Numbered from the stretch's first letter, positions 19,996 to 48,511 are shown. The stretch is DNA of 64,000 nucleotides from Alphaproteobacteria bacterium (GCA_020632795.1 JACKEV010000010.1:95127-159126); one strand, 5' to 3'. Numbers and translations: made by a program. Notes: generated by a model from the letters alone, not told the origin.

Positions 19996-20093
19996 GGGTG
20001 GTCAGTAGCGGCCGCCATTGCGCCGGACCGCAGGGGGTCATCCCACCCCCGCGACGAGCGTTGGAGAAAGCCGACCTGCGATCAGATGTACGT

Positions 20094-24010: not shown

Positions 24011-24645
24011 AGGTTCTGGCGGTCAGACAGTATGTAGGCGTCCGACAATATTCCTCCAGAAAAGCAGTTAAAGTATGCTCTGCATAGTCCGTCCTGATCA
24101 GGCTCAACCAGTCCAATATATACTATCTCCCATGGAGGATCTCCATCCTGCCTGATACCGTAACACCGATCGTAGTCCTGTATTCCCCCAATACCAACGC
24201 AGTGCGCCATGTGGCAGTCCATGCCGCGAGTAATTCCATATGGTTCGGCATCGATAAGATATGAGTTCCGCACGTCCCCCGCTGCAATTGAAACCGTGTT
24301 GCATTGAAATGGCACCACAATCGTCTCCATCACAGGTCTCCGCGCCATATCCACCTCCAACTCGACAATCGCAGCCTCGTTCAGGTCCTGCGAGTCTCCG
24401 AGAAGGACGATCTCTTCCTCTGCCAGTCCAATGCGTTCCCCACAGAACTCCAAGTCTTCTTGTGCCTGCCCCAATTGTCCCTCCAGAGCCCCCACTCGCT
24501 CCTCCACTTCGGCAAAGCCCGAGACCCCATCGACACCGTCACAGTTCTGATCGACTCCGTCCCCCAACACATCCGCCAGTCCACCCGGCACCCGGGGCTC
24601 GACAACGTCCAGAAGCATGGCTGACAGTCCTCCGAAGCGAATCAT
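23638..24645 (-). CDS. Hypothetical protein; 3' extent uncertain (overlaps the start region of the MopE/RCC1 gene)
   Basis: ATG at 24643-24645 overlaps the TGA of the upstream caspase gene (TGATG). The N-terminal part contains an NCDGVDG motif. The open frame runs through the AT-rich stretch 24000-24120 into the next gene, so there may be a frameshift or an earlier stop. Confidence 0.3.
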   Translation of the reverse strand: MIRFGGLSAMLLDVVEPRVPGGLADVLGDGVDQNCDGVDGVSGFAEVEERVGALEGQLGQAQEDLEFCGERIGLAEEEIVLLGDSQDLNEAAIVELEVDMARRPVMETIVVPFQCNTVSIAAGDVRNSYLIDAEPYGITRGMDCHMAHCVGIGGIQDYDRCYGIRQDGDPPWEIVYIGLVEPDQDGLCRAYFNCFSGGILSDAYILSDRQNLWFFVLLVETRLTLRVWIGPRLAGTFKRCSTMARLRQACTLCTDLWRKRLCLFRYFVPACSSTLRLITTRTGMACRLLREIATTSLHRCIAMLLRCAMTWTMIAMGRSTRRTRISTGLPLACGS

Positions 24646-26429
24646 CAGAACTCTCCCCCGACCTCGACCATCCCCAGCCCGACTCGGATCCCGACCGCGC
24701 GCACACGCCACCCCCCGACGACCAGCGCCGCCCCACCCAGCGCCACGCCCCCGATCCCGAGTTTGAACGCCGTGTCAAACTGGTTCTCCCCGGAATCGAC
24801 CGCGACGCACGCCCCCATCCCCGGGGTGTCGCCCTCCAGCCGCCCCTGCACGACCCTGGAGCCGACCATCGCCCCCAGCCCCGACGCCGCCATCGCCCCG
24901 CCCCCCCAGAGCCAGGCCTGCGGCTCCTGCCACCTCAGCCCGCCGCCAACCGACAGCGCCAGCCCAGCCCCGGCCACGCCCCAGCCGGCCGCATTGGCGC
25001 CAGCCCAGCCACGAGGCACCACCCCGTTGTAGACGGCGCGACAGCCGGGGCCCATCGAGGTGATCGCCACCGCAGTGCCCACGACCTGGAGGGCCGCGCC
25101 GGCAAAGGCGAGGTTCTGGGCGCCCCGATACGGGAGGGTGACCGTTAGGTCCAAGGTCTGGTTGTCCTCGAGCGAGAGGGGCTGCTCCACCCGACCGGCG
25201 CGCACGACATGGTCGCCGGGGCGCGTGTGGATGGTCAACGGGCGCTCGGGGGACTGAATCTCGTCGTCGAACACCACCTCGGATCGGATGGGGCGCCCCT
25301 GGCGGTTCTCTGTACGGAGGGTGAGGGTCGCGCCGGCTGTTCGTCCGACAACGAGCTCCTTGACCTCGCCCTTCTCCAGCATGACCGTCTGCTCTACCCC
25401 ATTGAAGACGACCCGGTGTGGGCCCGGCGCCAGATGCTGGAGGGTGACGAGGTTGCCGGGCAGCCGCACGCCGTAGTCCTGTCCGTCAACCAAGAGCGCT
25501 CCCTGTGCCAGGACGGTGACAACCAGCGTTGCCAGCCCCAGCTGCTCCACCACCACCACGGGGAAGTCCCCCGAGTTCTCGCCGCTTCGCCACGGCACCT
25601 GGACGTGTCCTCGGGCTACGGACTCATGCTTCACCTGCTCCCTGACGTAACCATACAGCTCCTCAGCGCTGACGACGCCGTCCTGAAGGATCCAGCCGTC
25701 GGCCTCCTGCCTCATGCCCTTCAGCAGGTAGTACGTCAACAGACCGTTGTTCAACTCATCATATTCGTAGGAATACCCCCCGAGGGCGGTCCCGTAGAGG
25801 ATGAAGGTGCCCTCAGAGTCTACGTACCGAGGGTTCGTCCAGGATGGAGGTTGTAAACTCTTGGAAACCCGTACCTGATTGCGGCAGGCATCCAGGATCA
25901 CAAGGCGCTGTTTGGCCTGGATGTTCTGCAGATCCGTCTGCACCCGAGCCAGCTCGATGCCCGTATCCTCGGGAAGTTCGGCATCGGCCTCGACAGGGAA
26001 GAGGTAGTTGACCCGCTCTTTCCCAACCTCGCTGCTCGCGCCATGCCCGGAGAAGAAGAACACGATGGACTCCAACTCTCCTTGTTCCCCCAGCTGATGA
26101 AGGTACTTCAGATGCTTGAGAATATTAACCTTTGTTGGCTGTAGATTGGGATCAAGCGCGTCCGGCGTCAGTACGATGACCTGTCGCTCCTTGTACACAC
26201 CACTCTCCACGAGCTGCGCGGCGAAGTCTCGTGCATCCTTGGCCGGGAACTTGAGGTCCTGGATGTCATCGTTTGTGTAGTCGTCGACCCCGATGATCAG
26301 CGCCCAGCGGCCCGAGGTCTCGGTGAGGATGTCGGCGGGGTTGTGGACAGTGATGTCCTTGGAGGACGCAGCGTCCTCCGGCGAGGATTGGGCCAGAGCG
26401 GCGGACAACATCGTGAGAAGGTGGAACAT
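24645..26429 (-). CDS. Caspase-domain (peptidase C14) protein, extracytoplasmic, dyad intact
   Basis: Signal peptide MFHLLTMLSAALAQS. WALIIGVDDY...FFFSGHGA...LVILDACRNQ. Paralog of 41346..43133 (same architecture, Gly-rich TM tail). Confidence 0.75.
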   Translation of the reverse strand: MFHLLTMLSAALAQSSPEDAASSKDITVHNPADILTETSGRWALIIGVDDYTNDDIQDLKFPAKDARDFAAQLVESGVYKERQVIVLTPDALDPNLQPTKVNILKHLKYLHQLGEQGELESIVFFFSGHGASSEVGKERVNYLFPVEADAELPEDTGIELARVQTDLQNIQAKQRLVILDACRNQVRVSKSLQPPSWTNPRYVDSEGTFILYGTALGGYSYEYDELNNGLLTYYLLKGMRQEADGWILQDGVVSAEELYGYVREQVKHESVARGHVQVPWRSGENSGDFPVVVVEQLGLATLVVTVLAQGALLVDGQDYGVRLPGNLVTLQHLAPGPHRVVFNGVEQTVMLEKGEVKELVVGRTAGATLTLRTENRQGRPIRSEVVFDDEIQSPERPLTIHTRPGDHVVRAGRVEQPLSLEDNQTLDLTVTLPYRGAQNLAFAGAALQVVGTAVAITSMGPGCRAVYNGVVPRGWAGANAAGWGVAGAGLALSVGGGLRWQEPQAWLWGGGAMAASGLGAMVGSRVVQGRLEGDTPGMGACVAVDSGENQFDTAFKLGIGGVALGGAALVVGGWRVRAVGIRVGLGMVEVGGEF

Positions 26430-26499
26430 CGTCAGACCTTATACAGATCAGTTGCAGTGACGGGGGCGGCTGGCTGGCGCGGCACAGAGGAGGTGGTCA

Positions 26500-28428
26500 T
26501 CAGTAGCTCCGGCCGAGCAGGACGTAGACGGAGCCAGAGTCGACGTTCCCGTTGTAGTCCGCCTGGTATCCGCCGATCAGCACGTCGTTCAGCCCATCGC
26601 CGTCCACATCCCCCGCGCCGGAGACGACATCTCCGAGCCATTCCCCAGCGCTCACGCCGTATATGCGCGCATCTGCGTCGGCGAGGCTCATCGATCCTGA
26701 CACCGGGCCCAGCACGACATAAGCTGCTCCGGCAAAAGAACCGCCTGTGCTGTTGTTGGGCCCGCCAAGTACGACGTCGTCGTAGCCATCCCCGTCAACA
26801 TCACCCACACTGTCGGTAGATACGCCAACGTAGTCGGGCCCTTGTTCGCCGTACAGCTTCGCATCATGGTCAGCCAGAGGCACATCCCCTGCCAGTGGTC
26901 CGTAGAACACGAAGATCGCCCCAGCGTCCCTCCCGCCGGTGTCGTCGCCATGAGAGCCGACGAGGGCATCCGCGTACCCATCGCGGTTGAAGTCCCCACG
27001 TGCGTTCACGGACTCCCCCAAGATGCCCCCCACGGTATCCCCCTGGATGGTCGCATCAGCGTCTTCGAGGCTGATGATCCCAGGCAGGGGATCGTACAGC
27101 AGGTACACCGCGCCTGAGTTCTCGGCCCCCAGGTCGGCGCCTGGGCCTCCGATGATCACGTCTGCAAACCCGTCGCCGTCCACGTCGCCGCCTCCCGCGA
27201 CCGACACCCCGGTTTCATCGTCGGCGGCCACGCCTGTGAACATGGAGGTCGCAGATGAAAGGGCAGAGTTCGCCATCGGATTCGTCAACAGATACACAGC
27301 ACCGGCCCGCGAGAAGCTTGAACTCTCACCGGGCGCAGCAATGAGCAAATCCACCTGACCATCTCCGTCCACATCACCGGCATTGGCAATGGAGGTGCCA
27401 GCCAGATCGCCAGGCGCTACGCCTACGAACTTCGCGTCTGCAGCAGCGAGGTTCATGTTACCGGACACCGGCCCGAGCACGAGATAGGCTGCGCCGGCCT
27501 CGACACCGTTGGTGCCCTCATGACTGGCGCCGATCAGGAGGTCATCGTAGCCGTCGCTGTTGACATCCCCGGCCGCTGCGACCTGATGCCCCGCCCAGTC
27601 CCCCGCGCCCTCCCCGATGAGTGTGGCGTCGGCGTCCCCAAGCGACCCGCCAGACGTGATGGGACCAAGGATGAGGTAGGCTGCACCGGCCTCGGTCATC
27701 CCGTGCCCGGACTCCTTGAACGCCCCCACCATGATGTCGTCGACGCCGTCATTGTTGACGTCCCCGACGCCCGCAAGCGCCCGCCCCGCCCAGTCCCCCG
27801 CAGCCTCTCCATCAAATCGAATCACCTCCGCCGAAGTCAGGTCGATCTCTCCCCAGCAGCTCCGCGTCGCCTGTTCCACATCGCTGTAGCAGTCGTTGAC
27901 GACGCCGTCGTCGCAGACCTCCGGCGCGCCTGGGAAGACAAGCTCGTCGTTGTCGTCGCAGTCCTCGCCGCGAAGACCGTCCTCGTTGACATGGCTCGCC
28001 GTTGCCCAACCGTCGCCATCAGCGTCGTAGTCGTTCCCACCATCGCAGGCCTGATCGATGCCATCATACCAACTCTCCTCCGCGCCAGGGTAGGCCGCCG
28101 GGTCGCCGTCGTCACAGTCGTTGCAGTCTTCAACGTAGGTTGCCGGTCCCTCGCAAGAGGTCAGCGTCTGCTCAGGATCGCCGTAGCCATCGCCATCGCC
28201 ATCCAGACACCAGACCCGGGCGTCCACCGCCGTGGCGTCGTTCACCCGACCATCACAGTTCTCATCAACCTGTTCGGCGTCACAGAGCTCATCGGCGCCC
28301 GGGTGGATGGCTGCGGCGGTGTCCGCGCAGTCCACCTCATAGGTGTAGCCATCCTGATCGATGTCTGTCGGATCCGCCTTCCACAAGCACCCCTGAACCA
28401 TCAACCCCACCAGCAGCAGACCTCGCAT
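26500..28428 (-). CDS. Lipoprotein with MopE-type repeats and FG-GAP (integrin-alpha-like) beta-propeller repeats
   Basis: Start MRGLLLVGLMVQGC (lipobox) with GGAGG upstream. The ORF track start at 28875 is a GC artefact. Repeats include GDVNNDGVDDIMVGAF...AGAAYLILGP. Confidence 0.7.
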   Translation of the reverse strand: MRGLLLVGLMVQGCLWKADPTDIDQDGYTYEVDCADTAAAIHPGADELCDAEQVDENCDGRVNDATAVDARVWCLDGDGDGYGDPEQTLTSCEGPATYVEDCNDCDDGDPAAYPGAEESWYDGIDQACDGGNDYDADGDGWATASHVNEDGLRGEDCDDNDELVFPGAPEVCDDGVVNDCYSDVEQATRSCWGEIDLTSAEVIRFDGEAAGDWAGRALAGVGDVNNDGVDDIMVGAFKESGHGMTEAGAAYLILGPITSGGSLGDADATLIGEGAGDWAGHQVAAAGDVNSDGYDDLLIGASHEGTNGVEAGAAYLVLGPVSGNMNLAAADAKFVGVAPGDLAGTSIANAGDVDGDGQVDLLIAAPGESSSFSRAGAVYLLTNPMANSALSSATSMFTGVAADDETGVSVAGGGDVDGDGFADVIIGGPGADLGAENSGAVYLLYDPLPGIISLEDADATIQGDTVGGILGESVNARGDFNRDGYADALVGSHGDDTGGRDAGAIFVFYGPLAGDVPLADHDAKLYGEQGPDYVGVSTDSVGDVDGDGYDDVVLGGPNNSTGGSFAGAAYVVLGPVSGSMSLADADARIYGVSAGEWLGDVVSGAGDVDGDGLNDVLIGGYQADYNGNVDSGSVYVLLGRSY

Positions 28429-28507: not shown

Positions 28508-29887
28508 TCACCCGTGCACCACCTCAACCTCCAACACCCACCCCGCCTCCCCCTCGACCGGGCGATGCCGCACACAGCGCTCCCCCGCCGCGTCCTCGAC
28601 CGGGAACACCTGGATCCCCTTCCGCCCGGCCATCTCGCGCTGCGCCTCGGGCGCCGCCGCCACCCACGCCGCCGCGAACGCCTCCACCGCCTCGGCCCCC
28701 TCCAGCGGCCCGGGGGACCACAGCGCCACGACCCGCTCGGTGCCCGCCGGGGGGACCAGGCGAAGCTCCAGGTCGTGGTCGTGGGGGAGTGCCCAGATGG
28801 CGCTGCCGGCGCGCACCGTGTCGTCCGGGGATTGCAGGGGGTAGAGCAGATGGGTCGCGCCGTCCGGGCCCACATTGACGAGCTTGAGGTGCCCGTCCTG
28901 CGGCACGGTCATGCGGACGCTGAACACGTCGCCCGTGCGATACCGGTGGTTGGCGGGCACCGGCCGTCGGTTGGCGTACAGACAGACCTCGACCTCCGCG
29001 CTGACCGCCGCCGCGACCTTCTGCGGGGACACATCGGGCAGCCCGAGGGTGTCCGGACGCCCACCGCCCTCCGCACCGGCCGCGCCGCCGCTGAGCTGTC
29101 CGACGAGGGGCGGGACCGCGCGCAGCAGCTCGGCGGCTTCCGCGATGCCGTCCTCATCGAGATCGCCGCTCCCCTGCATCGCTGAGATGACCCCGCAGGC
29201 GAATGCGCTCAGGCCCGCGCACGCGGGCTCGCCCTGGGACGCCGTGCTCACCCCCGTGGCCGTGATGACCATCACATCGTCCCGCTCCGCGCCGATCGCG
29301 GAGACCAGCGGGCTGACCGCCTCATCCGGCCCGGTGACCAGCCCGGGGAGGCTCTGATGGACCGGGTCGACGATGAGCCACACCTGACGCGCAGGCGAAC
29401 GCTGGACCAGCGCCTTCAGCTCCCGCAGGGCCAGGCTGCTGCCCGCAAGCGCCTGCCCCGGCCGGCTGTCCTGGAGGAGCAGGACCCCCTCCCGATCGAT
29501 CCGCGCCCCGTGGGTGGCCAGGTACACGATGACGACCTCATCCGCATCCGCGCCCAACAGCGCGCTCTGCAAGGCGTCACGCACCCGCGCCTGGGTGGCC
29601 TGGGGCCCCGTGAGCAGCGCGAGGTCATCCACCCGCAGCGCGCTGTCCAGGGCCATGGAGAAGCGCCGCGCGTCCTGCTCCGCCCAGGGGAGGCCCGCCG
29701 CCTCGCCCAGCCCAGGGAAGGCCCCGACGCCGACGACCACCGCCCGCACGTCGTAGCCCTCCGGCGGAGACGGCGCGTCGCGCGCCACGGCGACGATGCC
29801 CTTCTCCCCCTGACTGAGTGGAGCGGTGGTCGCCGCCGTGACCAGCGCAACGAACATGGACAGGACGAGCGCTATACAGAGATTCAC
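28508..29887 (-). CDS. Caspase-like pseudo-protease (catalytic Cys replaced by Val) with a DUF4384-like C-terminal domain
   Basis: VVVGVGAF...IVYLATHGA keeps the His, but LIVDPVHQS sits where the DACH/QACRG Cys belongs. The C-terminal PQDGHLKLVNVGPDGATHLLYP is DUF4384-like. The FG-GAP gene is 79 bp downstream on the same strand. Confidence 0.65.
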   Translation of the reverse strand: MNLCIALVLSMFVALVTAATTAPLSQGEKGIVAVARDAPSPPEGYDVRAVVVGVGAFPGLGEAAGLPWAEQDARRFSMALDSALRVDDLALLTGPQATQARVRDALQSALLGADADEVVIVYLATHGARIDREGVLLLQDSRPGQALAGSSLALRELKALVQRSPARQVWLIVDPVHQSLPGLVTGPDEAVSPLVSAIGAERDDVMVITATGVSTASQGEPACAGLSAFACGVISAMQGSGDLDEDGIAEAAELLRAVPPLVGQLSGGAAGAEGGGRPDTLGLPDVSPQKVAAAVSAEVEVCLYANRRPVPANHRYRTGDVFSVRMTVPQDGHLKLVNVGPDGATHLLYPLQSPDDTVRAGSAIWALPHDHDLELRLVPPAGTERVVALWSPGPLEGAEAVEAFAAAWVAAAPEAQREMAGRKGIQVFPVEDAAGERCVRHRPVEGEAGWVLEVEVVHG

Positions 29888-30039
29888 GAGACCTCCGACA
29901 AACGAGAGGATGCAGGAGCGCGACGTGCTCCGGACGGTATGTCCCAGCCCAAGGGGGTTGAACAGACGGTACCACCGAACCTGTGCCCCACGCCAGCGAC
30001 CGGAGATCGAGTCGTATCTGAGCCAGAAACACCAGCCGC

Positions 30040-31320
30040 CTATCCGGACGGCTCCACGTCGTAGATCAGATCGACGACCAGCGCAGCGGCGCCGTCAACG
30101 GGCGCTGACCAGTCCGCGCAGGCCCCCACGGTACGCAGAACCACGGGCTCGTCGGGGACCCAGGGCGTCTCCCCCAACGACTTTGACCAGGCGTCGCCAG
30201 CGTCCGATCGCGTCGGGTCCGGCAGGATCTGCCCCACCAGGGGCTCGGCGCCCCGGAGCACCACCAGACGCTCCAGGCGCTCCGGGGGCTCCAGGCGGAA
30301 CGGGAAGAACACCGTCTCCCGGTCCTGGTGCGACACCACAGAGAAGCCCGCCGCCACAGGGTCCAGGGTGAGGAGCTGCACGCCCCCGCCCCCCGGCGCG
30401 CTGACCGACAAGGTGTAGAGCTGCCGGGATCGCAGCCCGCGCCCCGCCGGGGTGCCGTCCACGCACACCCGCACCGGCACGGCCGGGATCGGGGTCGGCT
30501 CGGGCCAGAGCATCCAGGCCCCGACGCCGAGCCCCGCCATGGCCATCCCCCCCGCCCAGCGCAGCCAGCGGGGCGTCGGGGCGGGCGCCACGGGTCGCGT
30601 CGCGAACCGCGCGACGGCGTCCCGGAGGTCCCGAACCGCGACGGCTTCGACCTCCACCGCCTCGGGCAGCGTCGACCCCTCCGGCACAAACACCCGGGTC
30701 AGGCGACCCGAAGCGGCCGCCAGCTTGGCCGACAGACCGCCCACGGCGCTCACCCGCCCGTCGACCCCCACGCCTCCCGTGAAGCCGATGTCATCGGGCA
30801 CGTTGATGCCCTCCAGCGCGCAGCGGGTCGCCACGGCCAGGGGCAGGCCCAGGGAGGCGCCGTCCACCGCGAACAGCGACTCGTCCTCGACGTCGAGGTC
30901 CCACAGCACCAGGTGCGCCCCGAGCTGCACGCCAAGCGCGGCGTGGATGGCCCGGGTGCAGGCCTGGGCCGACTCCTGGCCCAGCTTCACATGCGGCACC
31001 TGCGTGCCCCGGCCGGGGTAGACGCTGACGGTCAGCCGCCCCAGGCGACCCTCGCCCTCCGGGGTGACCAGCAACGCCCAGGCGGACGCCGTGCGCGGGG
31101 GAGCGCGGCCGAGCTGCGCCTCCAACCGCTGGACGATGGGGGCCAGCTCCACGCGGTGGTCGTCCAGCTCCTGAAGGCAGAGCTGGGCTTCGGCCGAGGA
31201 GATGGAGACCTCTCCCCCCAGGTGGTTGACGAGCTGGCCCACCGCCGTGGTGTAGGCCAGGCGATCCCCGCCGGCGCGGGCGACGCGGATCGCGTGCAGC
31301 ATTCGGGCGATGGTGCTCAT
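30040..31320 (-). CDS. Lon-like (S16) peptidase-domain membrane protein
   Basis: Start MSTIARMLHAIRV at 31320. VDGASLGLPLAVATRCAL...TGGVGVDGRVSAVGGLSAKLAAA resembles a Lon proteolytic domain (Ser in the DGAS-LG context, Lys in GGLSAK). TM helix WLRWAGGMAMAGLGVGAWML, then a C-terminal extracytoplasmic domain. Confidence 0.55.
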   Translation of the reverse strand: MSTIARMLHAIRVARAGGDRLAYTTAVGQLVNHLGGEVSISSAEAQLCLQELDDHRVELAPIVQRLEAQLGRAPPRTASAWALLVTPEGEGRLGRLTVSVYPGRGTQVPHVKLGQESAQACTRAIHAALGVQLGAHLVLWDLDVEDESLFAVDGASLGLPLAVATRCALEGINVPDDIGFTGGVGVDGRVSAVGGLSAKLAAASGRLTRVFVPEGSTLPEAVEVEAVAVRDLRDAVARFATRPVAPAPTPRWLRWAGGMAMAGLGVGAWMLWPEPTPIPAVPVRVCVDGTPAGRGLRSRQLYTLSVSAPGGGGVQLLTLDPVAAGFSVVSHQDRETVFFPFRLEPPERLERLVVLRGAEPLVGQILPDPTRSDAGDAWSKSLGETPWVPDEPVVLRTVGACADWSAPVDGAAALVVDLIYDVEPSG

Positions 31321-31492
31321 GCGAGCTGCCTTCTCTGCGGGCGCACGGGGCGGGCAGGGTGTACCGGATTCGACGGACGAAAGAGAAAATCCGAACTTCC
31401 TCGACCGGCGCGCTTGGCGTTCAGGGCGAGGACGACGGGGCGCACGCCTCGGTCGAGCCTCATCCAACCCAGACGCCCCCTGGAGGCCCCAC

Positions 31493-32027
31493 CATGGCCC
31501 TCTCCTCCCCTTGCTCTGTGTACCTTCTGGCCCTGCTCGGCACCCTGGCCGCCACGCCGGCCTTCGCCGGCATCAGCGTCGGCCACCCCTCGGTCACCCT
31601 CGCGTCCGCCGACACCTCGGACGTCAAGGAGGTCTTCCTGCCCCTCGACGAGATCCGCCTCGTCAGCCCGACCTCGCAGACCCACACGATCCAGGTGGAC
31701 GACACCCTCGACCTGATCGCGGGCGAGGACGTCACCCTGCCCGTCGGCACCTGGGACGAGATGACCCTCTATCTGTCCGGCGACGTCGAGATCACGCTGA
31801 TCTCCCCCACCGAGCAGGAGGTGGACTACACCCTGACCCTCGGGCAGCTCCCGGTGGACCTCGGGGACGGCCTGGAGGTCAACACCTCGGGCGCCGCGAT
31901 GATGGTGCTCGTGCTCGACGCCGAGGTCCTCGAGGACGCCGCCGCGCTGAGCGATGCGGACCCTTGCGCGGCCGAGGCGCTGCTGGAGGACGCCCTGCTG
32001 GTCGACATCAAGCTCATCCCGGAGTAG
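31493..32027 (+). CDS. Small secreted protein
   Basis: MALSSPCSVYLLALLGTLAATPAFAG is a signal peptide. The ORF-track start at 31359 is likely too early. Confidence 0.45.
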
Positions 32028-32090
32028 GCTCGGCTCCGGCCTTTTCCCCTGGGGGCGGGCGTGCCCGGGCCCGCCCCCTGGAGCCCCGCC

Positions 32091-33104
32091 ATGAGCCTGC
32101 CTCGGATCTTCGACTACGATCACCACCAGACCTTCCTGGCCGAATGGTTCGAGGCCAGAAAGAAGAAGCGCTCCGGCTACTCTCACGCCGTGTTCGCGCG
32201 CGAGGCGGGCCTGGGGAACCGCGCCGCGCTCCTCCAGGTGATCCAGGGGCAGATCACCTTCTCCCAGGCGCTGCTCGCCGGGTTCACCCTGGCCATCGGC
32301 CTGGAGGGCCCCGAGGCCGAGTACCTCGGGGTCTTCGCCGAGATCGATCAGCTCGAACGCCAGGAGGCGCGCCAGCGGCGCCGCGTGGAGGCCACGCGGG
32401 AGACCGTGCGCGATCGGCGCCGATCGGGGGCCGCCGTCGAGCGCAAGCTGCGCACCCGCTTGATGGCGCACGAAGACGCCCTGGAGGAGACCCGGGCGCA
32501 GCTCTCTCGCGCCCGCTCCCGCCGCCGGGTGCTCAAGCTGCTGCACGGCCCGCCGTCCCTGGACGAGGACAGCCCGACGGTCTTGAAGGCGTGGCACTAC
32601 GCCGCGATCTCCGAGCTGAGCCGCTGCGCGGGCTTCACCCGCGACCCGGACCTCATCCGCCAGGCGCTGCACGGAGAGGTGAGCCGGGAGGAGGTCGAGC
32701 TGGCCCTGGCCGAGCTGGCCGCGAAGGGGGAGCTGGCCGACCAGCCCGCCGAGGCCGGCCCTGTGCGCCCCGACATCCTCGTCACCAACCCGGACGTCAC
32801 CATCGCGTTCACCGAGGCCTACTACCGCGGCATGATGGCGCTGGCCGACGCGTCGATGGCCCGCCTGCTGAACCCGAGCGAGAACGCCTACAACCAGCGC
32901 TGCCGCCTGGGCATGCTCACCGTGGCCGTGCAGCCTGACGCCCTCGCCGAGGTGCGGGCGCTGTTCGATGCGTTCAGGGAGCAGCTCCACGACGCCCTGG
33001 AGCGCGCCGAGGGGCCTCCGAAGGAGGTCGTTCAGGTGCTCTTCCACCTCTTCCCCCTCAGCGACGGGCTGGTCCCCGTCACGGAGACGCCGGACGAGGC
33101 GTGA
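32091..33104 (+). CDS. TIGR02147-family protein (putative HTH regulator)
   Basis: MSLPRIFDYDHHQTFLAEWFEARKKKRSGYSHAVFAREAGLGNRAALLQVIQGQ is typical of the TIGR02147 / Fibrobacter-type HTH family. Confidence 0.5.
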   Translation: MSLPRIFDYDHHQTFLAEWFEARKKKRSGYSHAVFAREAGLGNRAALLQVIQGQITFSQALLAGFTLAIGLEGPEAEYLGVFAEIDQLERQEARQRRRVEATRETVRDRRRSGAAVERKLRTRLMAHEDALEETRAQLSRARSRRRVLKLLHGPPSLDEDSPTVLKAWHYAAISELSRCAGFTRDPDLIRQALHGEVSREEVELALAELAAKGELADQPAEAGPVRPDILVTNPDVTIAFTEAYYRGMMALADASMARLLNPSENAYNQRCRLGMLTVAVQPDALAEVRALFDAFREQLHDALERAEGPPKEVVQVLFHLFPLSDGLVPVTETPDEA

Positions 33105-33552
33105 GCAGCAGGCGGCGCCCGTCGTCCAGCCGCGCGCGGAGCATCGCGGGCGGTGCCTCCAGGTCGTCCAGCTCCACGGTCTCCCCCTGAGAAAGCCGGA
33201 TCTCCCTGCCCGATACAGACAACCAGAGGGCGTCGCCGCCCGCCTCCAGCACCGCGACCGTGCGCCCCGTGATGGAGAGGCCCAGGCCCACCGCCCAGCC
33301 CGCGACCGTGTAGCGTACCGGGAAGCGGCGCGCCTCTGGCGGCGCTGCGGCGAGGATGCGCTCGCTGACCGTCACGGTCTGCACCTCGACCTCATCAACT
33401 GTGTCATATTGCCCGCCCGCGGCGGCCGCTTCGGCCAGCTCCCGAGCCTCTCGGGCCCGCCCGGCGCCCCTCGCCAGCGCAGAGAAGTCCGCCATCGGGT
33501 GCTCGTCCTCCAGCTCGCCCGCGAACAGGCGCTCCAGCTCCTCGCGCGTCAT
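33079..33552 (-). CDS. Hypothetical protein (possible anti-sigma partner)
   Basis: Coupled to the upstream sigma-like gene by an ATGA overlap at 33549-33552. Confidence 0.35.
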   Translation of the reverse strand: MTREELERLFAGELEDEHPMADFSALARGAGRAREARELAEAAAAGGQYDTVDEVEVQTVTVSERILAAAPPEARRFPVRYTVAGWAVGLGLSITGRTVAVLEAGGDALWLSVSGREIRLSQGETVELDDLEAPPAMLRARLDDGRRLLLTPRPASP

Positions 33553-34610
33553 CGGTCCTCCTCGCCAGGCTCAGGCAGGCATTCCAGCAGCATGGCGCCG
33601 ACCTGCTCCAGCAGGATCTTGCCCGGCCTCGCGGTGGGCTTCGGGCCGCCCAGCTCAGCCGCCAGGGCGCCGAGCACGCGCGCGGCACAGCCCTTGACGG
33701 CCTCGCAGACCCGGGGGGGTGTCTTGTAGCTGGGGTGGGCCTCCAGGATCTCTGCGAGGGTGCGCCCCTCGGCGACGAGCCGGAGGAGCGCGCGGTCCTC
33801 GGCGTCCAGGCGCGCCCAGACCCGCTCCACCGCGCGGCGGACCGCGACCTGCTCGTCGGGCCCGAGCTCATCGTGCACCTCGATGTCCTGCGGGCCGTCC
33901 AGCACCTCGCTGAGCAGCGCGGTGACGCGCTCCTGCGTAGCGACCCCCAGCCGCTCGAGGGCTGCCGGGACCAGCAGGGCGACCTGGGCCGGCTCGCGGA
34001 TGGCGTCGGAGGCGTTCCTCAGGGCACGCAGCTCCTCGGTCAGGTTCCCGGAGGCGGGCCGAACGACCCTCAAGCCTCGGGGCAGCCGCCAGGTGGGCTG
34101 CCCGTGCTCGGCGGGTGGGCCAGGCACCGCGACGGCCTGGAGGTGGCGGCCGACGGCGTGGTCCAGCCAGGCGAGCCAGCGCAGGCGATCCGAGCGCCGC
34201 AGGTTCTTCTCGTACTGGAGCTGCATCTCGTATCGGGTGAGCGAGCGGCGGGGCTGGTAGAAGGTCAGGTTGTGGATGCGTGGCCCGGGGAAGCAGCCGT
34301 CGTCGTCGGGGCGTCGCAGCGCCGGGGGCAGGCCGTCGGCGTAGCGGTGGAACGGCACCGCGCGGCAGAAGGGATAGCGGGGCATGGGGGTGCAGGCGCA
34401 GCGCTCGAAGACCCGGGTGACGAGATCCTCGACGCTCTCCGCGTCCTTCAGGTGGAGGGGGAACCAGCTCGCCGGGTAGCGCCAGGCCACCGCCGCGACG
34501 TGCCGCCGGAAGCCCTCCAGCAGCTCGGCGGCGAAGCGCTCGTCCTCGTGGACGAAGCCTCGGATCCAGCTCGGCCAGGGGTCGATGGCGGTGTGGGGTC
34601 TCATGGGCAT
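33549..34610 (-). CDS. Putative sigma-70 region-4-like regulator
   Basis: The C-terminal RLDAEDRALLRLVAEGRTLAEILEA looks like a sigma region 4 / LuxR-type HTH. Confidence 0.35.
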   Translation of the reverse strand: MPMRPHTAIDPWPSWIRGFVHEDERFAAELLEGFRRHVAAVAWRYPASWFPLHLKDAESVEDLVTRVFERCACTPMPRYPFCRAVPFHRYADGLPPALRRPDDDGCFPGPRIHNLTFYQPRRSLTRYEMQLQYEKNLRRSDRLRWLAWLDHAVGRHLQAVAVPGPPAEHGQPTWRLPRGLRVVRPASGNLTEELRALRNASDAIREPAQVALLVPAALERLGVATQERVTALLSEVLDGPQDIEVHDELGPDEQVAVRRAVERVWARLDAEDRALLRLVAEGRTLAEILEAHPSYKTPPRVCEAVKGCAARVLGALAAELGGPKPTARPGKILLEQVGAMLLECLPEPGEEDR

Positions 34611-34848
34611 GACCTGTCGGGTTGGGGCTTGATGCCGATGCGTCCGTCCTGACTGCTTCGCAGACTACCCGAGCGCGCCGCCGATGTCTCGCGCGGGGGG
34701 GCCCGACCGTTTCTGAGTTGAAAACGCGCGCTCACGGCCGGATGGAGACAGGGCGGGGGCTCGCGGCTACAGTCTCCTCGACGGACGCACCCCGGGTGCC
34801 GCCGCCCCGAAGTCAAACACCCGCGCCCCCCGCGGGAGGGAGGGAGAC

Positions 34849-36238
34849 TGTGTCTCGACGACTGCTCATCGCGCTCGCGCTCGCGGCGTCCCCCGCGCTC
34901 GCCCAGGGCAGCAAGGGCCTGACCCGCGCCTCCCAGAGCGCCGCGCCCCTGGGCGTTCGCGCGCTGTCCATCGGGGTGGGCGACTTCCCGAACCTGGAGG
35001 ACCGAGACGACCTGACCACCGCTGAGGCCGACGCCGCCCTGGTCGCGGAAGCCCTGGGTGCTGTGGTGCCCGCAGGGGGCATGACCGTGCTGACCGGCCC
35101 GCAGGCGCGCGCCGAGCGGGTGCGTCAGGAGCTGAGTGCGCTGCTGGACGGCACCCGCGAGGACGAAGCGGCGGTGATCTACTGGGCCACTCACGGCGCC
35201 GCCGTCGGTCGGCGGGGCTACCTCCTGGCGCAGGACAGCGTGCCCGAGGGGCGGCTGCCGTACACCGCCATCGCGCTGACCTGGCTGGGCGAGCAGCTCG
35301 CGAAGAGCCGCGCGGGCCAGGTCCTGCTCTTCCTGGACGCCGTGCATCAGGAGCTGGAGGGCCCAAAGGGCCTGCTGACCGGCCCGGCGTCGCCCATCAA
35401 CCCTCTGCTGGGCGCCCTCGCGGACGCCCGGGAGGGCGTCTTCGTCATGACCTCGAGCAGGCCCCGCGAGTCGATTTCGGGCGGGGGCGGGGCCTGCTCG
35501 GGGCATGGACCCTTCGCCTGCGCCCTGGCCCAGGCGCTCCAAGGGGCCGCCGACCTCGATCAGGACGGGCGGGTGGAGCTGGGCGAGCTGGCCCAGGGCA
35601 TGCCCCGGACCGTGGAGGCCGTCGCCGATGTCCCGCTCACCCCCACCAGCACGGGGCGCTACGTCTCGGATCTGGCGTTTCCTGCGGTGGTGCCGGCGAC
35701 CACGACGGTGGCGCGTGCGACCCGTCCCGAGGCGCTCGAGGTCTGCTTCGAATCCAACGGCCGGGACGTGCCCGCCGACCACATCTTCGCCACCGGTGAC
35801 ACCCTGGCCTTGAGCCTGACCGTGCCCGCCGACGGCCACCTCTACATCATCGCCACCGACGACAGCGGCGCGCTGGTGCCCGCCTTCCCCCTGCCCGGGG
35901 AGTCGAGCCGGGTGTCCCGGGGCGCGACCGTACGCCTTCCGCCACCCGAGCAGCAGGACCCGCTGGTCTTCGTGCCCCCGGCCGAGCCCGAGGAGCTGTA
36001 CCTGCTGTGGTCTGCAGAGCCCATCGCCGAGGGCGCCCAGGTCGCCTCGGCCTGGCGCGCGGCGGTGGAGGGCAGCCAGGTGGCGACCAACACCTCGTAC
36101 GGAGCCAAGGGCCTGATGCGCCCCAGCCAGCAGGTCGACCAGGGGCCGCGGCGGTGCAGCGAGTACACGCCCAAGGGGGATGACGGTCTGTGGGTCATCG
36201 ACCTCGTGCTGAACCACGTCGACGGGAGGGTGCGATGA
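34849..36238 (+). CDS. Caspase-like pseudo-protease (Cys replaced by Val) with a DUF4384-like C-terminus
   Basis: GTG start preceded by GGAGGGAGGGAG. Signal peptide RRLLIALALAASPALAQG. IYWATHGA keeps the His; LFLDAVHQE has Val at the Cys position. The C-terminal PADGHLYIIATDDSGALVPAFP is DUF4384-like. Confidence 0.65.
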
Positions 36239-36651
36239 GCTGGCCCCGAACCGTCGCTCTGGCTGCTCTGGCCGGCTGCTACGACCCCATCTACGGGGTG
36301 CCCGCCGACACGAGCGGCACCTCGGTGCCCGCCGTCGACGACCCCACCTGGACCGAGCACGTCGGCCCCACCTTCGCCAAGGGCTGCGGCGAGGGCTGTC
36401 ATGGCGGAGCGACCCCCGCCGCCGGTCTGACCATCGCCTACGAGGGCCTGGTGGATGTGCCCGCCGGGCAGCTCCCCGCCATGCCCCTGGTCACCCCGGG
36501 CGATCCCACACAGAGCTACCTCTGGCACAAGCTGGAGGGCACCCACGAGGAGGTCGGCGGCTCCGGTAGCCGCATGCCCCTGGGCCTGCCGCCGGGCGAG
36601 GCCGAGCTGGACCTCATCGCCACCTGGATCACCAACGACGCGCCGGAGTAG
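36235..36651 (+). CDS. PSCyt-type (Planctomycete cytochrome-c-like) small lipoprotein
   Basis: ATGA overlap with the upstream gene, GGGAGGG RBS. LAALAGC lipobox. GCGEGCHGG...PGDPTQSYLWHKL...MPLGLPPGEAELDLIATWITN matches the PSCyt1 pattern. Confidence 0.5.
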   Translation: MSWPRTVALAALAGCYDPIYGVPADTSGTSVPAVDDPTWTEHVGPTFAKGCGEGCHGGATPAAGLTIAYEGLVDVPAGQLPAMPLVTPGDPTQSYLWHKLEGTHEEVGGSGSRMPLGLPPGEAELDLIATWITNDAPE

Positions 36652-36655
36652 GGCC

Positions 36656-37522
36656 ATGCTGCTGAGCCTCCTTCTGTTCGGGAACACCGCTCTGGCCACC
36701 GTGGATGAGGCCTGCCTGGGCCTCGCCCGCCCCGACGACTATGACGAGCAGACCCAGGCGGACTTCCTCAACAACGCCGTGGCCCTGGCCTCGACCCTCT
36801 CACCCCTGCACGGCCCCGTGCCCCACGCGGCCGGGCGCGGATCGGTGGGGCTGGATCTCGCGGTCATCCCCCCGCTGGGCTGCCGTCACCGCATGGTGCT
36901 GGACTGGACCAAGTCCGAGGACACCAACAAGTCCCCGGTCCTGCCCCGCCCCCGGATGACCTTCGCGTTCAACCCCATCGCCGGGCGGCTGTTCCCGTAC
37001 GGTGGCGTGGCCTTCGTGCCGCCGGTCCCGGTGGCCGGGGTGCGCAGCGTGGTCGCGTCGGTCGAGGCCGGGGTGGGGGTGTATGTGGGGCAGCACGCCC
37101 AGCTCGGGGTGCGGGTCCACGGCACCCTCCAGACCGTGCTGGGGGACGTCGCGACGTCCTTTGAGGAGGACGGCCCGGTGGTCGAGGATCTGTATGTGGC
37201 GACGAGCCAGGGGGTCGACGTGATGCTCGGCTGGGAGCTGGAGCGGGTCACGCCGTACCTGGCGCTGGGCTACGCGGACGTGGGGACGTTCTTCTGGATC
37301 GGCGACGACGCCTACGTCAGCAACAACCTCCACCCCTACCTCGGCCCGGCCGCGTCATTGGGGGCGGACGCGCTCTTGTTCGACCGGCTGCGGCTGGCCG
37401 GGGAGCTGTACGCCGCGCCCGGGGGGCACACCACCCCTCGGGACAACATCGAGTCCCTGCCGGGCTTCGGCCGCTACGGCCACCTCTACACCGCGCGCCT
37501 GCGCATCGCATACGAACTCTGA
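36656..37522 (+). CDS. Secreted hypothetical protein (possible outer-membrane beta-barrel)
   Basis: MLLSLLLFGNTALA is a signal peptide. Alternating amphipathic strands; the ORF track's earlier start at 36455 is not supported. Confidence 0.45.
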   Translation: MLLSLLLFGNTALATVDEACLGLARPDDYDEQTQADFLNNAVALASTLSPLHGPVPHAAGRGSVGLDLAVIPPLGCRHRMVLDWTKSEDTNKSPVLPRPRMTFAFNPIAGRLFPYGGVAFVPPVPVAGVRSVVASVEAGVGVYVGQHAQLGVRVHGTLQTVLGDVATSFEEDGPVVEDLYVATSQGVDVMLGWELERVTPYLALGYADVGTFFWIGDDAYVSNNLHPYLGPAASLGADALLFDRLRLAGELYAAPGGHTTPRDNIESLPGFGRYGHLYTARLRIAYEL

Positions 37523-37544
37523 TCCCCCTTGAGGAGGACAATCA

Positions 37545-39385
37545 TGAACAAGTCATTCGCGATTGCAGGCATGCTGCTGCTGAGCGCCTGCGACTGCTAC
37601 TCCAACCGCTTCCCCGGAAGCTGCGCGACAGAGGACCCCACCTCCTCGACCCCGGCGGACGACTCGGCCTCCTGCGATGCCCTCGCCGCCGAGGCCCTGA
37701 CCGTCCTGAGCACCCACTGCGCGGGGTGTCACGCCAACGGGCGCGCCGAGGGCGGCTTTGACTATCTCCTGGACGTCGACAAGCTCGTCGAGCTGAACAA
37801 GGTCCGCTCCGGAGACCCGGAGGGCTCCGCCCTGTTCAACCGGATGGCCAGCGGCTCGATGCCGCCGTACGGGGAGGGGCCCTCCGACGCGGAGATCGAA
37901 GCAGTGCGAGGCTGGATCGCGTGCGGCGTGGACGCGGCCGCGCCGGAGCGGGCCTTCGTCCCCAACGAGACCGTGTTCAGTTGGATGGCCGAGGATCTGC
38001 GCGGGATCCAGGAGCCTGAGCGGATCTACATCCGCTACATCAGCCTGGTACATCTGTGGAACGCCGGGGTCGCCGAGGGGCGGCTGGACACCTACCGGGC
38101 GGGGCTGGCCAAGCTCCTGAACCACCTGTCCTGGATGCCGCGCATCACGAACCCCACGCCGGTCGACGCGGACGCGCTGCTCTACCGCATCGACCTGCGG
38201 GACTACCGCTGGCAGGCGACGACCGAGGACCCCGTCGACGCCTGGGAGACCGTGGTCGCCCGCGACCCCTACGCCTTCGCATACGACGACGCGGACTTCC
38301 GCTTCGTGGTCGAGAACACGGCGGCCCGGCAGCCCCTGCTGCACGCCGACTGGCTGGTCGCGGCGGTCGCCGTGCCCCCCCTCTACCACCGCGTCCTGGA
38401 TCTGCCGGCCCGCCAGGCCGACTTCCTGACCCTGTTCGGGGTGGATCAAGCACAGAACGTCGCGGACGCGGTGGTCGATCGCATGGGCTTCCAGCAGTCC
38501 GGGGTCTCGGACAACAACCGCGTCATCGAGCGCCACGACGCCGACTACGGCTACTGCTGGACCAGCTACGACTTCGGCGGCAACGGCGGCGCCCAGAACA
38601 TCCTGGCCGACCCGCTGGGCTTCCGCCCGGACGGCGGCGAGCTGTTCTGCAGCCTGCCCAACCACCTCCAGGCCTACCTGCTGGCCAACGCGGCCGGCGA
38701 CCGCCTGGACGTCGGCCCCGACCACATCGTGTACGACAACCTGCACGATCGGGAGGTGGTCAACGGCCTGGGCTGCATGACCTGTCACACCCGGGGCATC
38801 CTCCCCAAGGACGACCAGGTGCTGCCCTATGTGCTCGACAACGAGCACCTGTTCACCCCCCAGGAGTTGGAGCGCATCACCCTGCTCTACCCCCCCAACG
38901 ACGAGGGCCGCGCGCTCCAGGCCGCCGACCAGGCCTCCTTCCTGGAGGCGCTGGACCTCACTGGCGCCCCCCAAGCCTACGAGACCGAGCAGGTGTTCGC
39001 CCTGAGCGAGGCCTTCGCCGACGACCTCGACCTGGCCCGCGCCGCCGCAGAGGTGGGCCTGACGCCGGAGGAGCTGGAGGACCGCATCCCCTACTTCTCC
39101 GACGACGTGAAGCGGGAGCTGAACAACCTGCTCTCCCCCGGCGGGACCGTGCAGCGGGGCATCTTCCTGGGGCTGGCCCGGGAGGTCATCTGTGTGGTCG
39201 AGGGGGCCGCGGACAGCGACGGGGCGTGTCTGGATGTCGAGGGGGCCTGTGGGGCGGCGGGGGTGGCTTGCCTGGAGGGGCAGGGGTGTGTGTCCGCGCA
39301 TGAGGCGGACGCGGGGGCGTGTGTGCGCTGCGCGGTGTTGGGGGGAGCGTCGGTGAGCCTCGATCTCGATGGACAGGGTTGTTGA
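37545..39385 (+). CDS. Heme-binding lipoprotein, PSCyt-type cytochrome-c domain family
   Basis: Lipobox LLLSAC. CAGCH at residue ~60 is a CxxCH heme-binding motif; the second CxxCH-like site CMTCH follows. The N-terminal domain is PSCyt1-like (GGFDYLLD...MPP...WIACG). Confidence 0.55.
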
Positions 39386-41113: not shown

Positions 41114-41345
41114 CCCGACGGAGAGCCGAACCATCACTCCCCCCAATATCTGAATCAGAATTGGCTTTTCGCTGAGAAACAGAACCCACTTCGAGCCCTC
41201 ACCACCGCCGCACCAAAGGTGGTATACAGACAACCAAGTCGGGACGGGACGTTCGACAGCGCTCCAACGCGTGACACGCCGCTGAAGCGGCGCCGCTCAT
41301 GCCAGATACACAGAGCCTTCCTCCCCCAAGGGGTCGGGCTCCCAG

Positions 41346-48312: not shown

Positions 48313-48495
48313 AGTTGCCCCGACCTCAGCCCCATCGAGATGACCATCTCCAAGATCAAAGCGCGCTTGGGAGGCATGAAGGCTCGAATCCTGGACCTGC
48401 TGGAGACCGTACTCCGAAGCGCCTGGGCAGCAATCACAACAGATGCAGGCGCGGCCTGGTTTCGGCACCACGGCTACCCGATGGCATCAAGTTGA
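48313..48495 (+). pseudogene. IS630-family transposase C-terminal remnant
   Basis: The frame after the FG-GAP stop reads SCPDLSPIEMTISKIKARLGG...AWAAITTDAGAAWFRHHGY. This resembles the conserved IS630 C-terminus (SPDLNPIE...WF.HCGY). There is no upstream DDE domain. Confidence 0.45.
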
Positions 48496-48511
48496 CGGTG
48501 GAATCCTGTAT

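What the first reader, a model, noticed from the sequence alone, without database searches (positions are those of the whole stretch)
28508..36238. Two pseudo-caspases with Val at the catalytic Cys position, each fused to a DUF4384-like domain
28508-29887 (-) reads ...YLATHGA...LIVDPVHQS and 34849-36238 (+) reads ...YWATHGA...FLDAVHQE. The His motif is kept but Cys becomes Val in exactly the D-A-C-H context used by the active paralogs. Both end with a DUF4384-like segment (PxDGHL..v.....g....l.P). Each heads its own operon: the FG-GAP lipoprotein gene 26500-28428, and the PSCyt cytochrome / beta-barrel genes 36235-39385. Catalytically dead caspase paralogs are classic regulators or decoys (as c-FLIP is). 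This would be a bacterial extracytoplasmic analogue.
Basis: seen in the sequence. Interest (0 to 1): 0.7.

Follow-up and report, generated by a model that had tools for sequence, protein, structure and literature searches.

The report
Secreted dead caspase homologues, Myxococcota operon
Two neighbouring genes encode secreted caspase-like proteins that have lost the catalytic cysteine, as has every sampled relative in their small Myxococcota clade; bacterial "pseudo-orthocaspases" are already a described class, so this is a new, well-conserved example rather than a new kind of thing.

Summary

They are not lone mutants. In all 13 core representatives of their clade the Cys column is V/A/S/R, never Cys, and His is lost in 5. 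Both S1-pocket Asp residues are invariant. 125 related active domains all have His and Cys.

The clade is monophyletic in a crude tree, next to an active clade that includes window gene 20094-21704. All sampled members come from metagenome contigs or MAGs; the named loci and a synteny-linked gene family point to Myxococcota.

Gene order is conserved: pseudo-caspase, then a ~135-aa CX3CH lipoprotein, a ~290-aa protein and a ~620-aa protein with two CxxCH motifs. A Lon-like membrane protein carrying the same DUF4384 module, a DUF4423 regulator and active caspases lie nearby.

Loss of catalysis is well supported. The c-FLIP-like decoy role is untested. Pseudo-orthocaspases, some with DUF4384, were described in 2019-2020, so novelty is modest. 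An unexplained extra: a K-G-(L/M/I)-x-R motif occurs twice per protein and co-varies within each protein.

The parts
28508..29887 (-). Gene A: pseudo-orthocaspase, 459 aa (signal peptide, caspase-like domain, DUF4384, tail)
29036..29749 (-). A: caspase-like domain (aa 47-284)
   Evidence: Secondary structure of the model; fold matches
29510..29512 (-). A: His126 codon (CAC), catalytic-His column, retained
29360..29362 (-). A: Val176 codon (GTC) in the catalytic-Cys column, at the end of strand beta4
28712..28942 (-). A: DUF4384 Ig-like beta-sandwich (aa 316-392)
28511..28711 (-). A: conserved C-terminal tail (two helices, disordered linker, beta-hairpin with the invariant Cys438)
29780..29803 (-). 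A: N-terminal copy of the twin motif (EKGIVAVA, degenerate, no Arg)
28598..28621 (-). A: C-terminal copy of the twin motif (RKGIQVFP)
34850..36238 (+). Gene B: pseudo-orthocaspase, 462 aa; ortholog (about 42% identity) of the copy that heads the conserved operon in L001 and L003
35192..35194 (+). B: His115 codon (CAC), retained
35342..35344 (+). B: Val165 codon (GTG) in the catalytic-Cys column
35786..36022 (+). B: DUF4384-like domain (aa 313-391)
   Evidence: Pfam 26.3 bits, just below the cut-off of 27; aligns with A's module
34913..34936 (+). B: N-terminal twin motif SKGLTRAS
36107..36130 (+). B: C-terminal twin motif AKGLMRPS
30040..31467 (-). Lon_C-like (S16) protein with a TM segment and the same DUF4384+tail module; probable start is the ATG at 31320
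   Evidence: Pfam Lon_C 34.6 bits; module HMM E 6.8e-45; Ser and Lys aligned to the Lon dyad region; homologues in L001, L003 and L035
36235..36651 (+). 138-aa putative lipoprotein with an invariant CX3CH motif (PSCyt1-like, sub-threshold)
36653..37522 (+). 289-aa conserved protein (about 60% identical across loci), no family hit
37529..39385 (+). 618-aa putative lipoprotein with two invariant CxxCH motifs
26500..28428 (-). FG-GAP/MopE repeat putative lipoprotein downstream of A
20094..21704 (-). Active-type paralogue (STHG...VDACH), member of the sister clade of the pseudo-caspases
24645..26429 (-). Active-type caspase paralogue (SGHG...LDACR)
41346..43133 (+). Active-type caspase paralogue, 46.6% identical to 24645-26429
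32061..33104 (+). DUF4423 / TIGR02147 family protein, conserved in the locus
33079..34610 (-). Conserved 353-aa + 157-aa gene pair, divergent from B, with no family hit

Best explanation
A and B are two members of an old clade of secreted, non-catalytic orthocaspase homologues (pseudo-orthocaspases). All sampled members come from uncultured bacteria; the named loci and a synteny-linked gene family point to Myxococcota.

Shown:
- The caspase fold is intact.
- The nucleophile Cys is replaced by Val/Ala/Ser/Arg throughout the clade, and the general-base His is dispensable.
- The two Asp residues that form the basic-P1 (S1) pocket in metacaspases are invariant.
- An EF-hand-like D-x-D/N-x-D-G...E loop and two Cys pairs are also invariant or nearly so.
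- The domain is followed by an Ig-like DUF4384 sandwich plus a tail.

Inferred: the caspase domain has been kept as a module that binds peptides but does not cleave them. The DUF4384+tail module mediates association. The same module sits on the outer side of a co-encoded membrane Lon-like protease, and pseudo-caspases often come in pairs. A and B would therefore act as binding, scaffold or regulatory subunits of an envelope system. Its conserved core is the operon pseudo-caspase - CX3CH lipoprotein - 290-aa protein - 2xCxxCH lipoprotein. Active orthocaspases, FG-GAP/MopE lipoproteins and a DUF4423 regulator lie nearby.
For: - Dead site across the clade: Cys column V8 A2 S2 R1 and His column H8 Q3 L1 R1 in 13 representatives that are at most 50% identical. 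All 125 related His/Cys domains have His and Cys.
- Selection persists: D62 and D164 (P0001 numbering) are 13/13, G117 is 12/13, the C213/C221 pair 12/13, and C292/C428 are invariant. D62 aligns with the Asp of the Yca1 GCINDA motif. The S1 role of these Asp residues comes from TbMCA2 (Asp95/Asp211), as cited in PMC6426788.
- The clade is monophyletic and sister to an active clade (NJ only).
- Conserved synteny.
- DUF4384 is an Ig-like/MG-like sandwich. The same module is in the Lon-like protein.
- Tandem or paired pseudo-caspases occur in L003, L005/L007, L037 and the window.
Against: - No biochemical or interaction data exist. The binding function is inferred only from what is conserved.
- D164 could be conserved for structural reasons.
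The nucleophile assignment therefore rests on sequence/profile alignment plus predicted secondary structure.
- Three divergent relatives (P0024, P0030, P0033) have also lost the S1 Asp residues. This weakens a universal peptide-binding role.
- A's twin motifs lack the Arg, although A keeps both Asp residues.
- The wider 290-aa/PSCyt-like module occurs in many Myxococcota MAGs without any pseudo-caspase: 27 of the 28 related loci found in GTDB species-representative genomes. The pseudo-caspase is therefore an accessory to that module, not an essential part of it.
- The extracytoplasmic location was judged by eye. No signal-peptide predictor was run.
Confidence: 0.6

Rival explanations
1. c-FLIP-like decoy. 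A and B pair with the neighbouring active orthocaspases through the caspase domain and inhibit or activate them in the envelope.
For: - The pseudo clade is sister to an active clade that is co-encoded: window 20094-21704 and the L001 caspase at 10245-12233 in the same operon.
- Active caspases lie within 10 kb in the window, L001, L003 and L036.
Against: - The contig carrying L005/L007 shows no active caspase in the roughly 2.5 kb it extends downstream of the operon.
- Metacaspases are generally monomeric (background knowledge, not tested here).
- The stronger conserved linkage is to the haem-motif lipoprotein module.
- No interaction test was possible.
Confidence: 0.2
2. Processed substrates or baits. 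The twin K-G-(L/M/I)-x-R motifs in disordered linkers are cleavage sites for the Arg/Lys-specific active paralogues, or for another locus protease. A and B would be matured or consumed by proteolysis rather than acting as binders.
For: - The motif occurs twice in 11 clade proteins and lies in the pLDDT<50 segments of A's model, residues 1-33 and 403-426.
- It is almost absent from other locus proteins.
- The two copies co-vary within each protein: 0 of 200000 permutations reach the observed similarity.
- Orthocaspases cleave after basic residues (PMC6426788 abstract).
Against: - A has lost the Arg in both copies, and P0010 has His in both.
- Cleavage was not tested.
- The invariant C292-C428 pair would keep the tail attached after cleavage, so the consequence of a cut is unclear.
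Confidence: 0.13
3. Still an enzyme. Catalysis would use another nucleophile, such as Ser in some orthologs, a distant Cys, or water activated by His.
For: - His is kept in A and B.
- Two orthologs have Ser in the Cys column.
Against: - Val, Ala and Arg cannot be nucleophiles.
- His is lost in 5/13 representatives.
- No Cys lies within about 45 residues in sequence, and the nearest pair is shared with active relatives.
Confidence: 0.03
4. Decaying paralogues with no function.
For: The active site is degenerate. Three relatives (P0024, P0030, P0033) are strongly eroded.
Against: - Full-length ORFs in 13 or more lineages at about 35% identity.
- Invariant Asp, Cys and EF-hand-like positions.
- Conserved synteny and confident fold prediction.
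Confidence: 0.02

Closest known systems
Bacterial pseudo-orthocaspases (Klemencic et al. 2019, PMC6426788; SyOC of Synechocystis, PMC7889975)
   Same: - A p20-type caspase homologue with a substituted His-Cys dyad.
- The S1-pocket Asp residues are conserved despite the dead site.
- They often carry C-terminal accessory domains, including DUF4384: the alphaproteobacterial QC clade in PMC6426788 and mutated cyanobacterial orthocaspases in PMC7475262.
- They arose several times independently.
   Different: - The described clades are mainly alphaproteobacterial and cyanobacterial, with YS, YA, FS, YN, QC or HA dyads.
- This clade is apparently from Myxococcota, mostly His/Val, and apparently secreted.
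- It sits in a conserved operon with CX3CH/CxxCH lipoproteins and carries twin co-varying motifs.
- A (22.7 bits) and B (no Pfam C14 hit) would fall below the 35.2-bit p20 cut-off quoted in that census, so the clade was probably not counted.
c-FLIP (CASP8 and FADD-like apoptosis regulator), protease-like domain
   Different: c-FLIP works by heterodimerising with procaspase-8 through death-effector domains and the caspase dimer interface. No such domains are present here and no dimerisation evidence exists. The location is cytosolic for c-FLIP and extracytoplasmic here.
MALT1 paracaspase (caspase-Ig3)
   Different: MALT1 is an active Cys protease with an N-terminal death domain and Ig1-2. Sequence identity is 14-16%. 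Domain orientation differs (rmsd 8.7-14 A over the full length). The resemblance is in architecture, not family membership.
Myxococcus xanthus DdvA anti-sigma factor (extracytoplasmic TPR-CHAT; PMC6061681, PDB 8rot)
   Different: DdvA is a membrane-anchored anti-sigma factor with a CHAT domain. A and B are soluble secreted proteins. The adjacent 353-aa/157-aa pair has no detectable sigma or anti-sigma homology.

Membership tests
Peptidase C14 / caspase-hemoglobinase fold (orthocaspase-type p20) | Caspase alpha/beta fold detectable by sequence and structure | tested here: met
Peptidase C14 / caspase-hemoglobinase fold (orthocaspase-type p20) | Catalytic His in the (S/T)HG motif | tested here: met
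   A His126 and B His115. Lost in 5/13 clade representatives.
Peptidase C14 / caspase-hemoglobinase fold (orthocaspase-type p20) | Catalytic Cys in the D-x-C-H/R motif at the end of beta4 | tested here: not met
   Val176 (A) and Val165 (B). 0/13 clade representatives have Cys, against 125/125 in related His/Cys domains.
Peptidase C14 / caspase-hemoglobinase fold (orthocaspase-type p20) | Acidic S1 pocket (Asp equivalents of TbMCA2 D95 and D211) | tested here: met
   D72/D174 in A and D61/D163 in B; 13/13 in the clade. Assigned by alignment, not by superposition.
Pseudo-orthocaspase (sense of PMC6426788: p20 homologue, no p10, His and/or Cys substituted) | p20 homology with a substituted dyad | tested here: met
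Pseudo-orthocaspase (sense of PMC6426788: p20 homologue, no p10, His and/or Cys substituted) | Absence of a p10 domain by the authors' p10 HMM | not tested
   Their p10 HMM is not available here. The Pfam C14 match to A stops at profile position 128/233, but the NCBIfam model covers the full 211 positions.
DUF4384 (PF14326) | Score above the Pfam gathering cut-off (27 bits) | tested here: met
   A scores 39.2 bits. B scores 26.3 bits, just below, but is homologous to A's module. The fold is an Ig-like/MG-like sandwich.
c-FLIP-like decoy of an active paralogue | Heterodimerises with and modulates the active paralogue | not testable with these tools
   No multimer prediction or experiment is available. 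There is only co-location with active paralogues.
Paracaspase (MALT1-like) | Active Cys protease with N-terminal death and Ig domains | tested here: not met
   No Cys. No N-terminal domain beyond a signal peptide. The similarity is limited to the caspase-then-Ig-like architecture.

The most novel reading that the evidence does not exclude
The retained S1 pocket of each pseudo-caspase recognises the protein's own co-evolving K-G-(L/M/I)-x-R motifs. One copy follows the signal peptide and one lies in the DUF4384-tail linker. Recognition could be in cis (autoinhibition) or in trans (head-to-tail assembly of the paired pseudo-caspases and the Lon-like protein, which carries the C-terminal copy). 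This would form a caspase-fold, non-proteolytic switch. It would couple an envelope haem-lipoprotein module to a membrane Lon-like protease and the adjacent regulators.
Probability: 0.1. Interest if true: 0.65.

Novelty: new member of a known kind. Interest (0 to 1): 0.35.

Why it matters
Pseudo-proteases are a recurring way to build regulators and receptors. Bacterial pseudo-orthocaspases are known almost only from sequence censuses and one cyanobacterial knockout.

This clade offers a clean case for experiment:
- The nucleophile is always lost, while the substrate pocket is always kept.
- The proteins are apparently secreted.
- They are usually paired.
- They are locked into a conserved operon with candidate partners: haem-motif lipoproteins, a Lon-like membrane protease sharing the same Ig-like module, and active paralogues.

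It also shows that Pfam-threshold censuses miss divergent dead caspases. The practical gain is a defined set of proteins and motifs on which binding, decoy and substrate roles can be told apart. It does not change the current picture of what bacterial caspase homologues are.

Tried and rejected
- All three homologous-protein searches (A, B and the family profile) returned essentially only the query proteins. The word index is probably swamped by Ala/Gly-rich words. The exhaustive representative search was used instead.
I used the well-conserved 290-aa neighbour instead. That showed its family is much wider than the pseudo-caspase clade: 28 related loci in GTDB species-representative genomes, all MAGs, and only L007 has pseudo-caspases.
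- A PDB sequence search with the A+B profile found nothing. A broader profile aligned only the N-terminal half, up to the His, to Yca1, so no solved structure gave a residue-level alignment across the Cys position.
- The afdb50 fold library was unavailable.
- PADLOC gave only generic caspase and Lon hits and no defence system.
- Pfam at E up to 5 found nothing for the 353-aa, 157-aa and 289-aa proteins. My by-eye impression that the 353-aa protein has a sigma-like C-terminus is therefore dropped.
- Pfam on neighbours of the 290-aa homologues in L017 and L018 was uninformative.
- An alternative-nucleophile reading was considered and rejected (see rivals).


Full report
**What is there.** The window is high-GC (about 0.72), with lower-GC blocks at 20-28 kb and 48-52 kb.
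- Gene A (28508-29887, minus strand, 459 aa) and gene B (34850-36238, plus strand, 462 aa) are real long ORFs.
- Each start codon is preceded by a good Shine-Dalgarno sequence.
- A and B are 36% identical.
- NCBI holds both as 'DUF4384 domain-containing protein' from a MAG labelled Alphaproteobacteria, on a 760-kb contig.

**Is the caspase call right?**
- NCBIfam's caspase_w_EACC1 model covers the whole domain in both proteins, at E 9.6e-13 and 3.7e-14.
- Pfam Peptidase_C14 is just above its cut-off for A. It is absent for B, which has only a sub-threshold CHAT hit.
- An AlphaFold2 model of A, built from a 15-sequence family alignment, has pLDDT of about 90 in the caspase domain.
- Foldseek's best full-length hits are MALT1 caspase-Ig3, at E 5.5e-11.

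**Is Val in the nucleophile position?**
- In a MAFFT alignment with the three Cys-bearing caspase paralogues of the same window, the His-Gly and the Asp two residues before the nucleophile are invariant. The nucleophile column reads V, V, C, C, C. The paralogues are 20094-21704, 24645-26429 and 41346-43133.
- An HMM alignment of 150 representative relatives gives the same column: 125 domains with His and Cys, all in D-x-C context.
- In the model, the Val is the last residue of the fourth core strand, 158-166 in P0001 numbering. This is where the caspase Cys sits.
- I could not superpose coordinates, so the residue-level assignment rests on alignment plus predicted secondary structure.
It fails. 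A's cysteines are at 4 (signal peptide), 223, 231, 302 and 438. B's are at 216, 224, 299 and 436.
- The 223/231 pair is also present in active relatives. The 302/438 pair belongs to the C-terminal module.

**Ortholog survey.** An exhaustive HMMER search of 1.84 billion representatives found a sharply separated family, P0003-P0013, at E 1e-109 to 1e-66 and with the same architecture. Ordinary His/Cys caspase homologues with other C-termini came next. The core clade has 13 representatives that are at most 50% identical to each other.

| Column (P0001 numbering) | Residues in the 13 core representatives |
|---|---|
| Cys column (166) | V8, A2, S2, R1 |
| His column (116) | H8, Q3, L1, R1 |
| D62 | D in 13/13 |
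| D164 | D in 13/13 |
| D232, D236, E243 (EF-hand-like loop D-x-D/N-x-D-G...E) | conserved in 13/13 |
| C213/C221 pair | 12/13 |
| C292 and C428 | invariant |

- D62 aligns with the Asp of the GCINDA motif of Yca1.
- By homology, D62 and D164 are the S1-pocket Asp95 and Asp211 of TbMCA2. These are the residues that Klemencic et al. found conserved in other pseudo-orthocaspases (PMC6426788).
- Three more divergent relatives (P0024, P0030, P0033) have eroded the whole active-site region but keep the C-terminal module.
- A neighbour-joining tree places the pseudo clade as one group. Its sister is an active STHG...DACH clade that contains window gene 20094-21704 and a caspase of locus L001. The tree is crude and has no support values.
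- Conclusion: catalysis was lost once, long ago, and the proteins have stayed under selection for something else.

**The C-terminal half.**
- Pfam DUF4384 matches A at 39 bits and B at 26 bits, just under the cut-off.
- Modelled alone, the module (DUF4384 plus tail) has pLDDT 81 and pTM 0.78.
- After the sandwich come two helices, a disordered linker and a beta-hairpin that carries the invariant C-terminal Cys.
- The same module is found at the C-terminus of the neighbouring Lon_C-like protein (30040-31467), after a predicted membrane segment.
- In that protein, Ser and Lys align with the Lon Ser-Lys region.

**Genomic context.** I recovered contigs for nine other clade members and compared them by BLAST and HMMs.
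- The order pseudo-caspase, ~135-aa protein, ~290-aa protein, ~610-670-aa protein recurs in full in the window (B), L001, L003 and L005/L007.
- L006, the P0006 contig and L036 show the same order until the contig ends.
- The small protein has an invariant CX3CH motif and a lipobox.
- The large one has two invariant CxxCH motifs.
- The 290-aa protein is about 60% identical across loci.
- The following also recur: the Lon-like gene (window, L001, L003, L035), a DUF4423/TIGR02147 gene, a 353-aa + 157-aa pair with no family hit, FG-GAP/MopE lipoproteins and active caspases.
- Two pseudo-caspases per locus is common. They are tandem in L003, L005/L007 and L037, and the second copy in L037 is again His/Val. 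In the window they are split onto divergent arms.
- B is the ortholog of the operon-heading copy, at 42% identity to L001 and L003. A is equally distant from all of them, at about 35%.
- A lies about 150 bp downstream of the Lon-like gene, after a weak terminator-like hairpin. It is followed by the FG-GAP gene and caspase 24645-26429, with gaps of 79 bp and 70 bp.
- The 290-aa family is much wider. It has 28 related loci in GTDB species-representative genomes, all MAGs. Most are titled Myxococcota or Deltaproteobacteria, and several titles are obviously wrong.
- Only one of those loci (L007) has the pseudo-caspases. The pseudo-caspase is therefore a lineage-specific addition to that module.

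**An unexpected feature.** Eleven clade members (A, B, P0003-P0008, P0010, P0011 and the divergent P0030) carry the motif [ST]-K-[GS]-[LMI]-x-[RH] twice.
- One copy comes just after the signal peptide. The other lies in the linker before the terminal hairpin.
- In A's model both fall in pLDDT<50 segments.
- The two copies resemble each other more within a protein than between proteins. Mean BLOSUM score is 25.2 against 15.4, and 0 of 200000 permutations reach the observed value.
- Examples: P0004 has TKGIQRLS and TKGIGRLS. P0010 has His in both copies. A has lost the Arg in both.
- The motif is essentially absent from the other locus proteins.
- It could be a ligand of the retained basic pocket or a cleavage site for the active paralogues. 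Neither was tested.

**Mechanism.**
- Shown: the fold is intact, the site is dead, the pocket residues are kept, and the module and operon are conserved.
- Inferred: a non-catalytic binding or scaffold subunit of an envelope system.
- The c-FLIP-like decoy idea remains possible but has no specific support beyond co-location with active paralogues.

**Comparison with the literature.**
- Klemencic et al. 2019 (PMC6426788) reported that 858 of 9,994 bacterial orthocaspases lack the dyad, mostly in Alphaproteobacteria and Cyanobacteria.
- Their dyads are YS, YA, FS, QC or HA, the S1 Asp residues are conserved, losses were independent, and one clade carries DUF4384.
- A 2020 review notes DUF4384 on mutated cyanobacterial orthocaspases (PMC7475262).
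- The class, and even the domain combination, are therefore known.
- I found no description of this His/Val clade or its operon.
- Its weak Pfam scores would have excluded it from the 2019 census.

**Verdict.** It is a new clade of a known kind. The conserved operon and the co-varying twin motif are worth a note. Interest is 0.35.

Noticed in passing
A 29780-29803 and 28598-28621 (-); B 34913-34936 and 36107-36130 (+); also P0003-P0011, P0030: A short motif [ST]K[GS][LMI]x[RH] occurs twice per pseudo-caspase, in the two disordered segments. The two copies co-vary within each protein (0 of 200000 permutations reach the observed similarity). The motif is nearly absent from other locus proteins.
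   Followed up: partly
window 30040-31467 (-); L001 4149-5261; L003 5321-6757; L035 445-1557: A Lon_C-like (S16) protein with a membrane segment carries the same DUF4384+tail module as the pseudo-caspases. Ser and Lys align with the Lon dyad region. It precedes the pseudo-caspase genes in L001, L003 and the window; in L035 it lies nearby but separated.
   Followed up: partly
window 36235-39385 (+); L001 7001-10132; L003 9645-12978; L005 3851-7158: A conserved three-gene module: a ~135-aa lipoprotein with an invariant CX3CH, a ~290-aa protein about 60% identical across loci with no family hit, and a ~620-aa lipoprotein with two invariant CxxCH motifs. The 290-aa family occurs in 28 mostly Myxococcota-labelled MAG loci, mostly with only a PSCyt-like partner.
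   Followed up: partly
A aa 242-254 (about 29126-29164, -); B aa about 235-247: An EF-hand-like loop, D-x-D/N-x-D-G-x-V/I-x-x-x-E-L, lies in the last helix region of the caspase domain. It gave calmodulin hits in a PDB profile search and is conserved in both dead and active relatives.
   Followed up: partly
window 20001-28000 and 48001-52000: GC content drops to 0.58-0.63 against about 0.72 elsewhere. The first block covers the MopE/RCC1, FG-GAP and two active caspase genes.
   Followed up: no
window 24645-28428 (-) versus 39494-43133 (+): Mirror-image arms: an FG-GAP/MopE lipoprotein followed by a ~595-aa caspase lies on each side of the central regulator block. The two caspases are 46.6% identical. 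Together with the tandem pseudo-caspases in other loci, this suggests an inversion that split an ancestral tandem pair.
   Followed up: partly
window 33079-34610 (-); L001 2028-3532; L003 2087-3579; L035 1554-3055: A conserved, translationally coupled 353-aa + 157-aa gene pair lies divergent from B. It has no Pfam, NCBIfam or PADLOC hit even at E up to 5.
   Followed up: partly
window 30034-30053 (-): A terminator-like hairpin overlaps the stop codon of the Lon-like gene, upstream of A.
   Followed up: no
L001 13002-15523: SAVED-domain and adenosine-deaminase-like genes lie downstream of the caspase in L001. They may be an unrelated CBASS-like neighbour.
   Followed up: no
L010, L011, L015, L019, L020, L033 (record titles): Several high-GC Myxococcota-like MAG contigs carry implausible NCBI titles, such as Klebsiella pneumoniae, Enterobacteriaceae and Bifidobacterium breve. 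The window's own source is titled Alphaproteobacteria.
   Followed up: no
L036 1687-5703 (-): A 1338-aa protein combines a caspase domain, WD40 beta-propellers and OmpA. It sits next to an FG-GAP gene, an active caspase and pseudo-caspase P0010.
   Followed up: no
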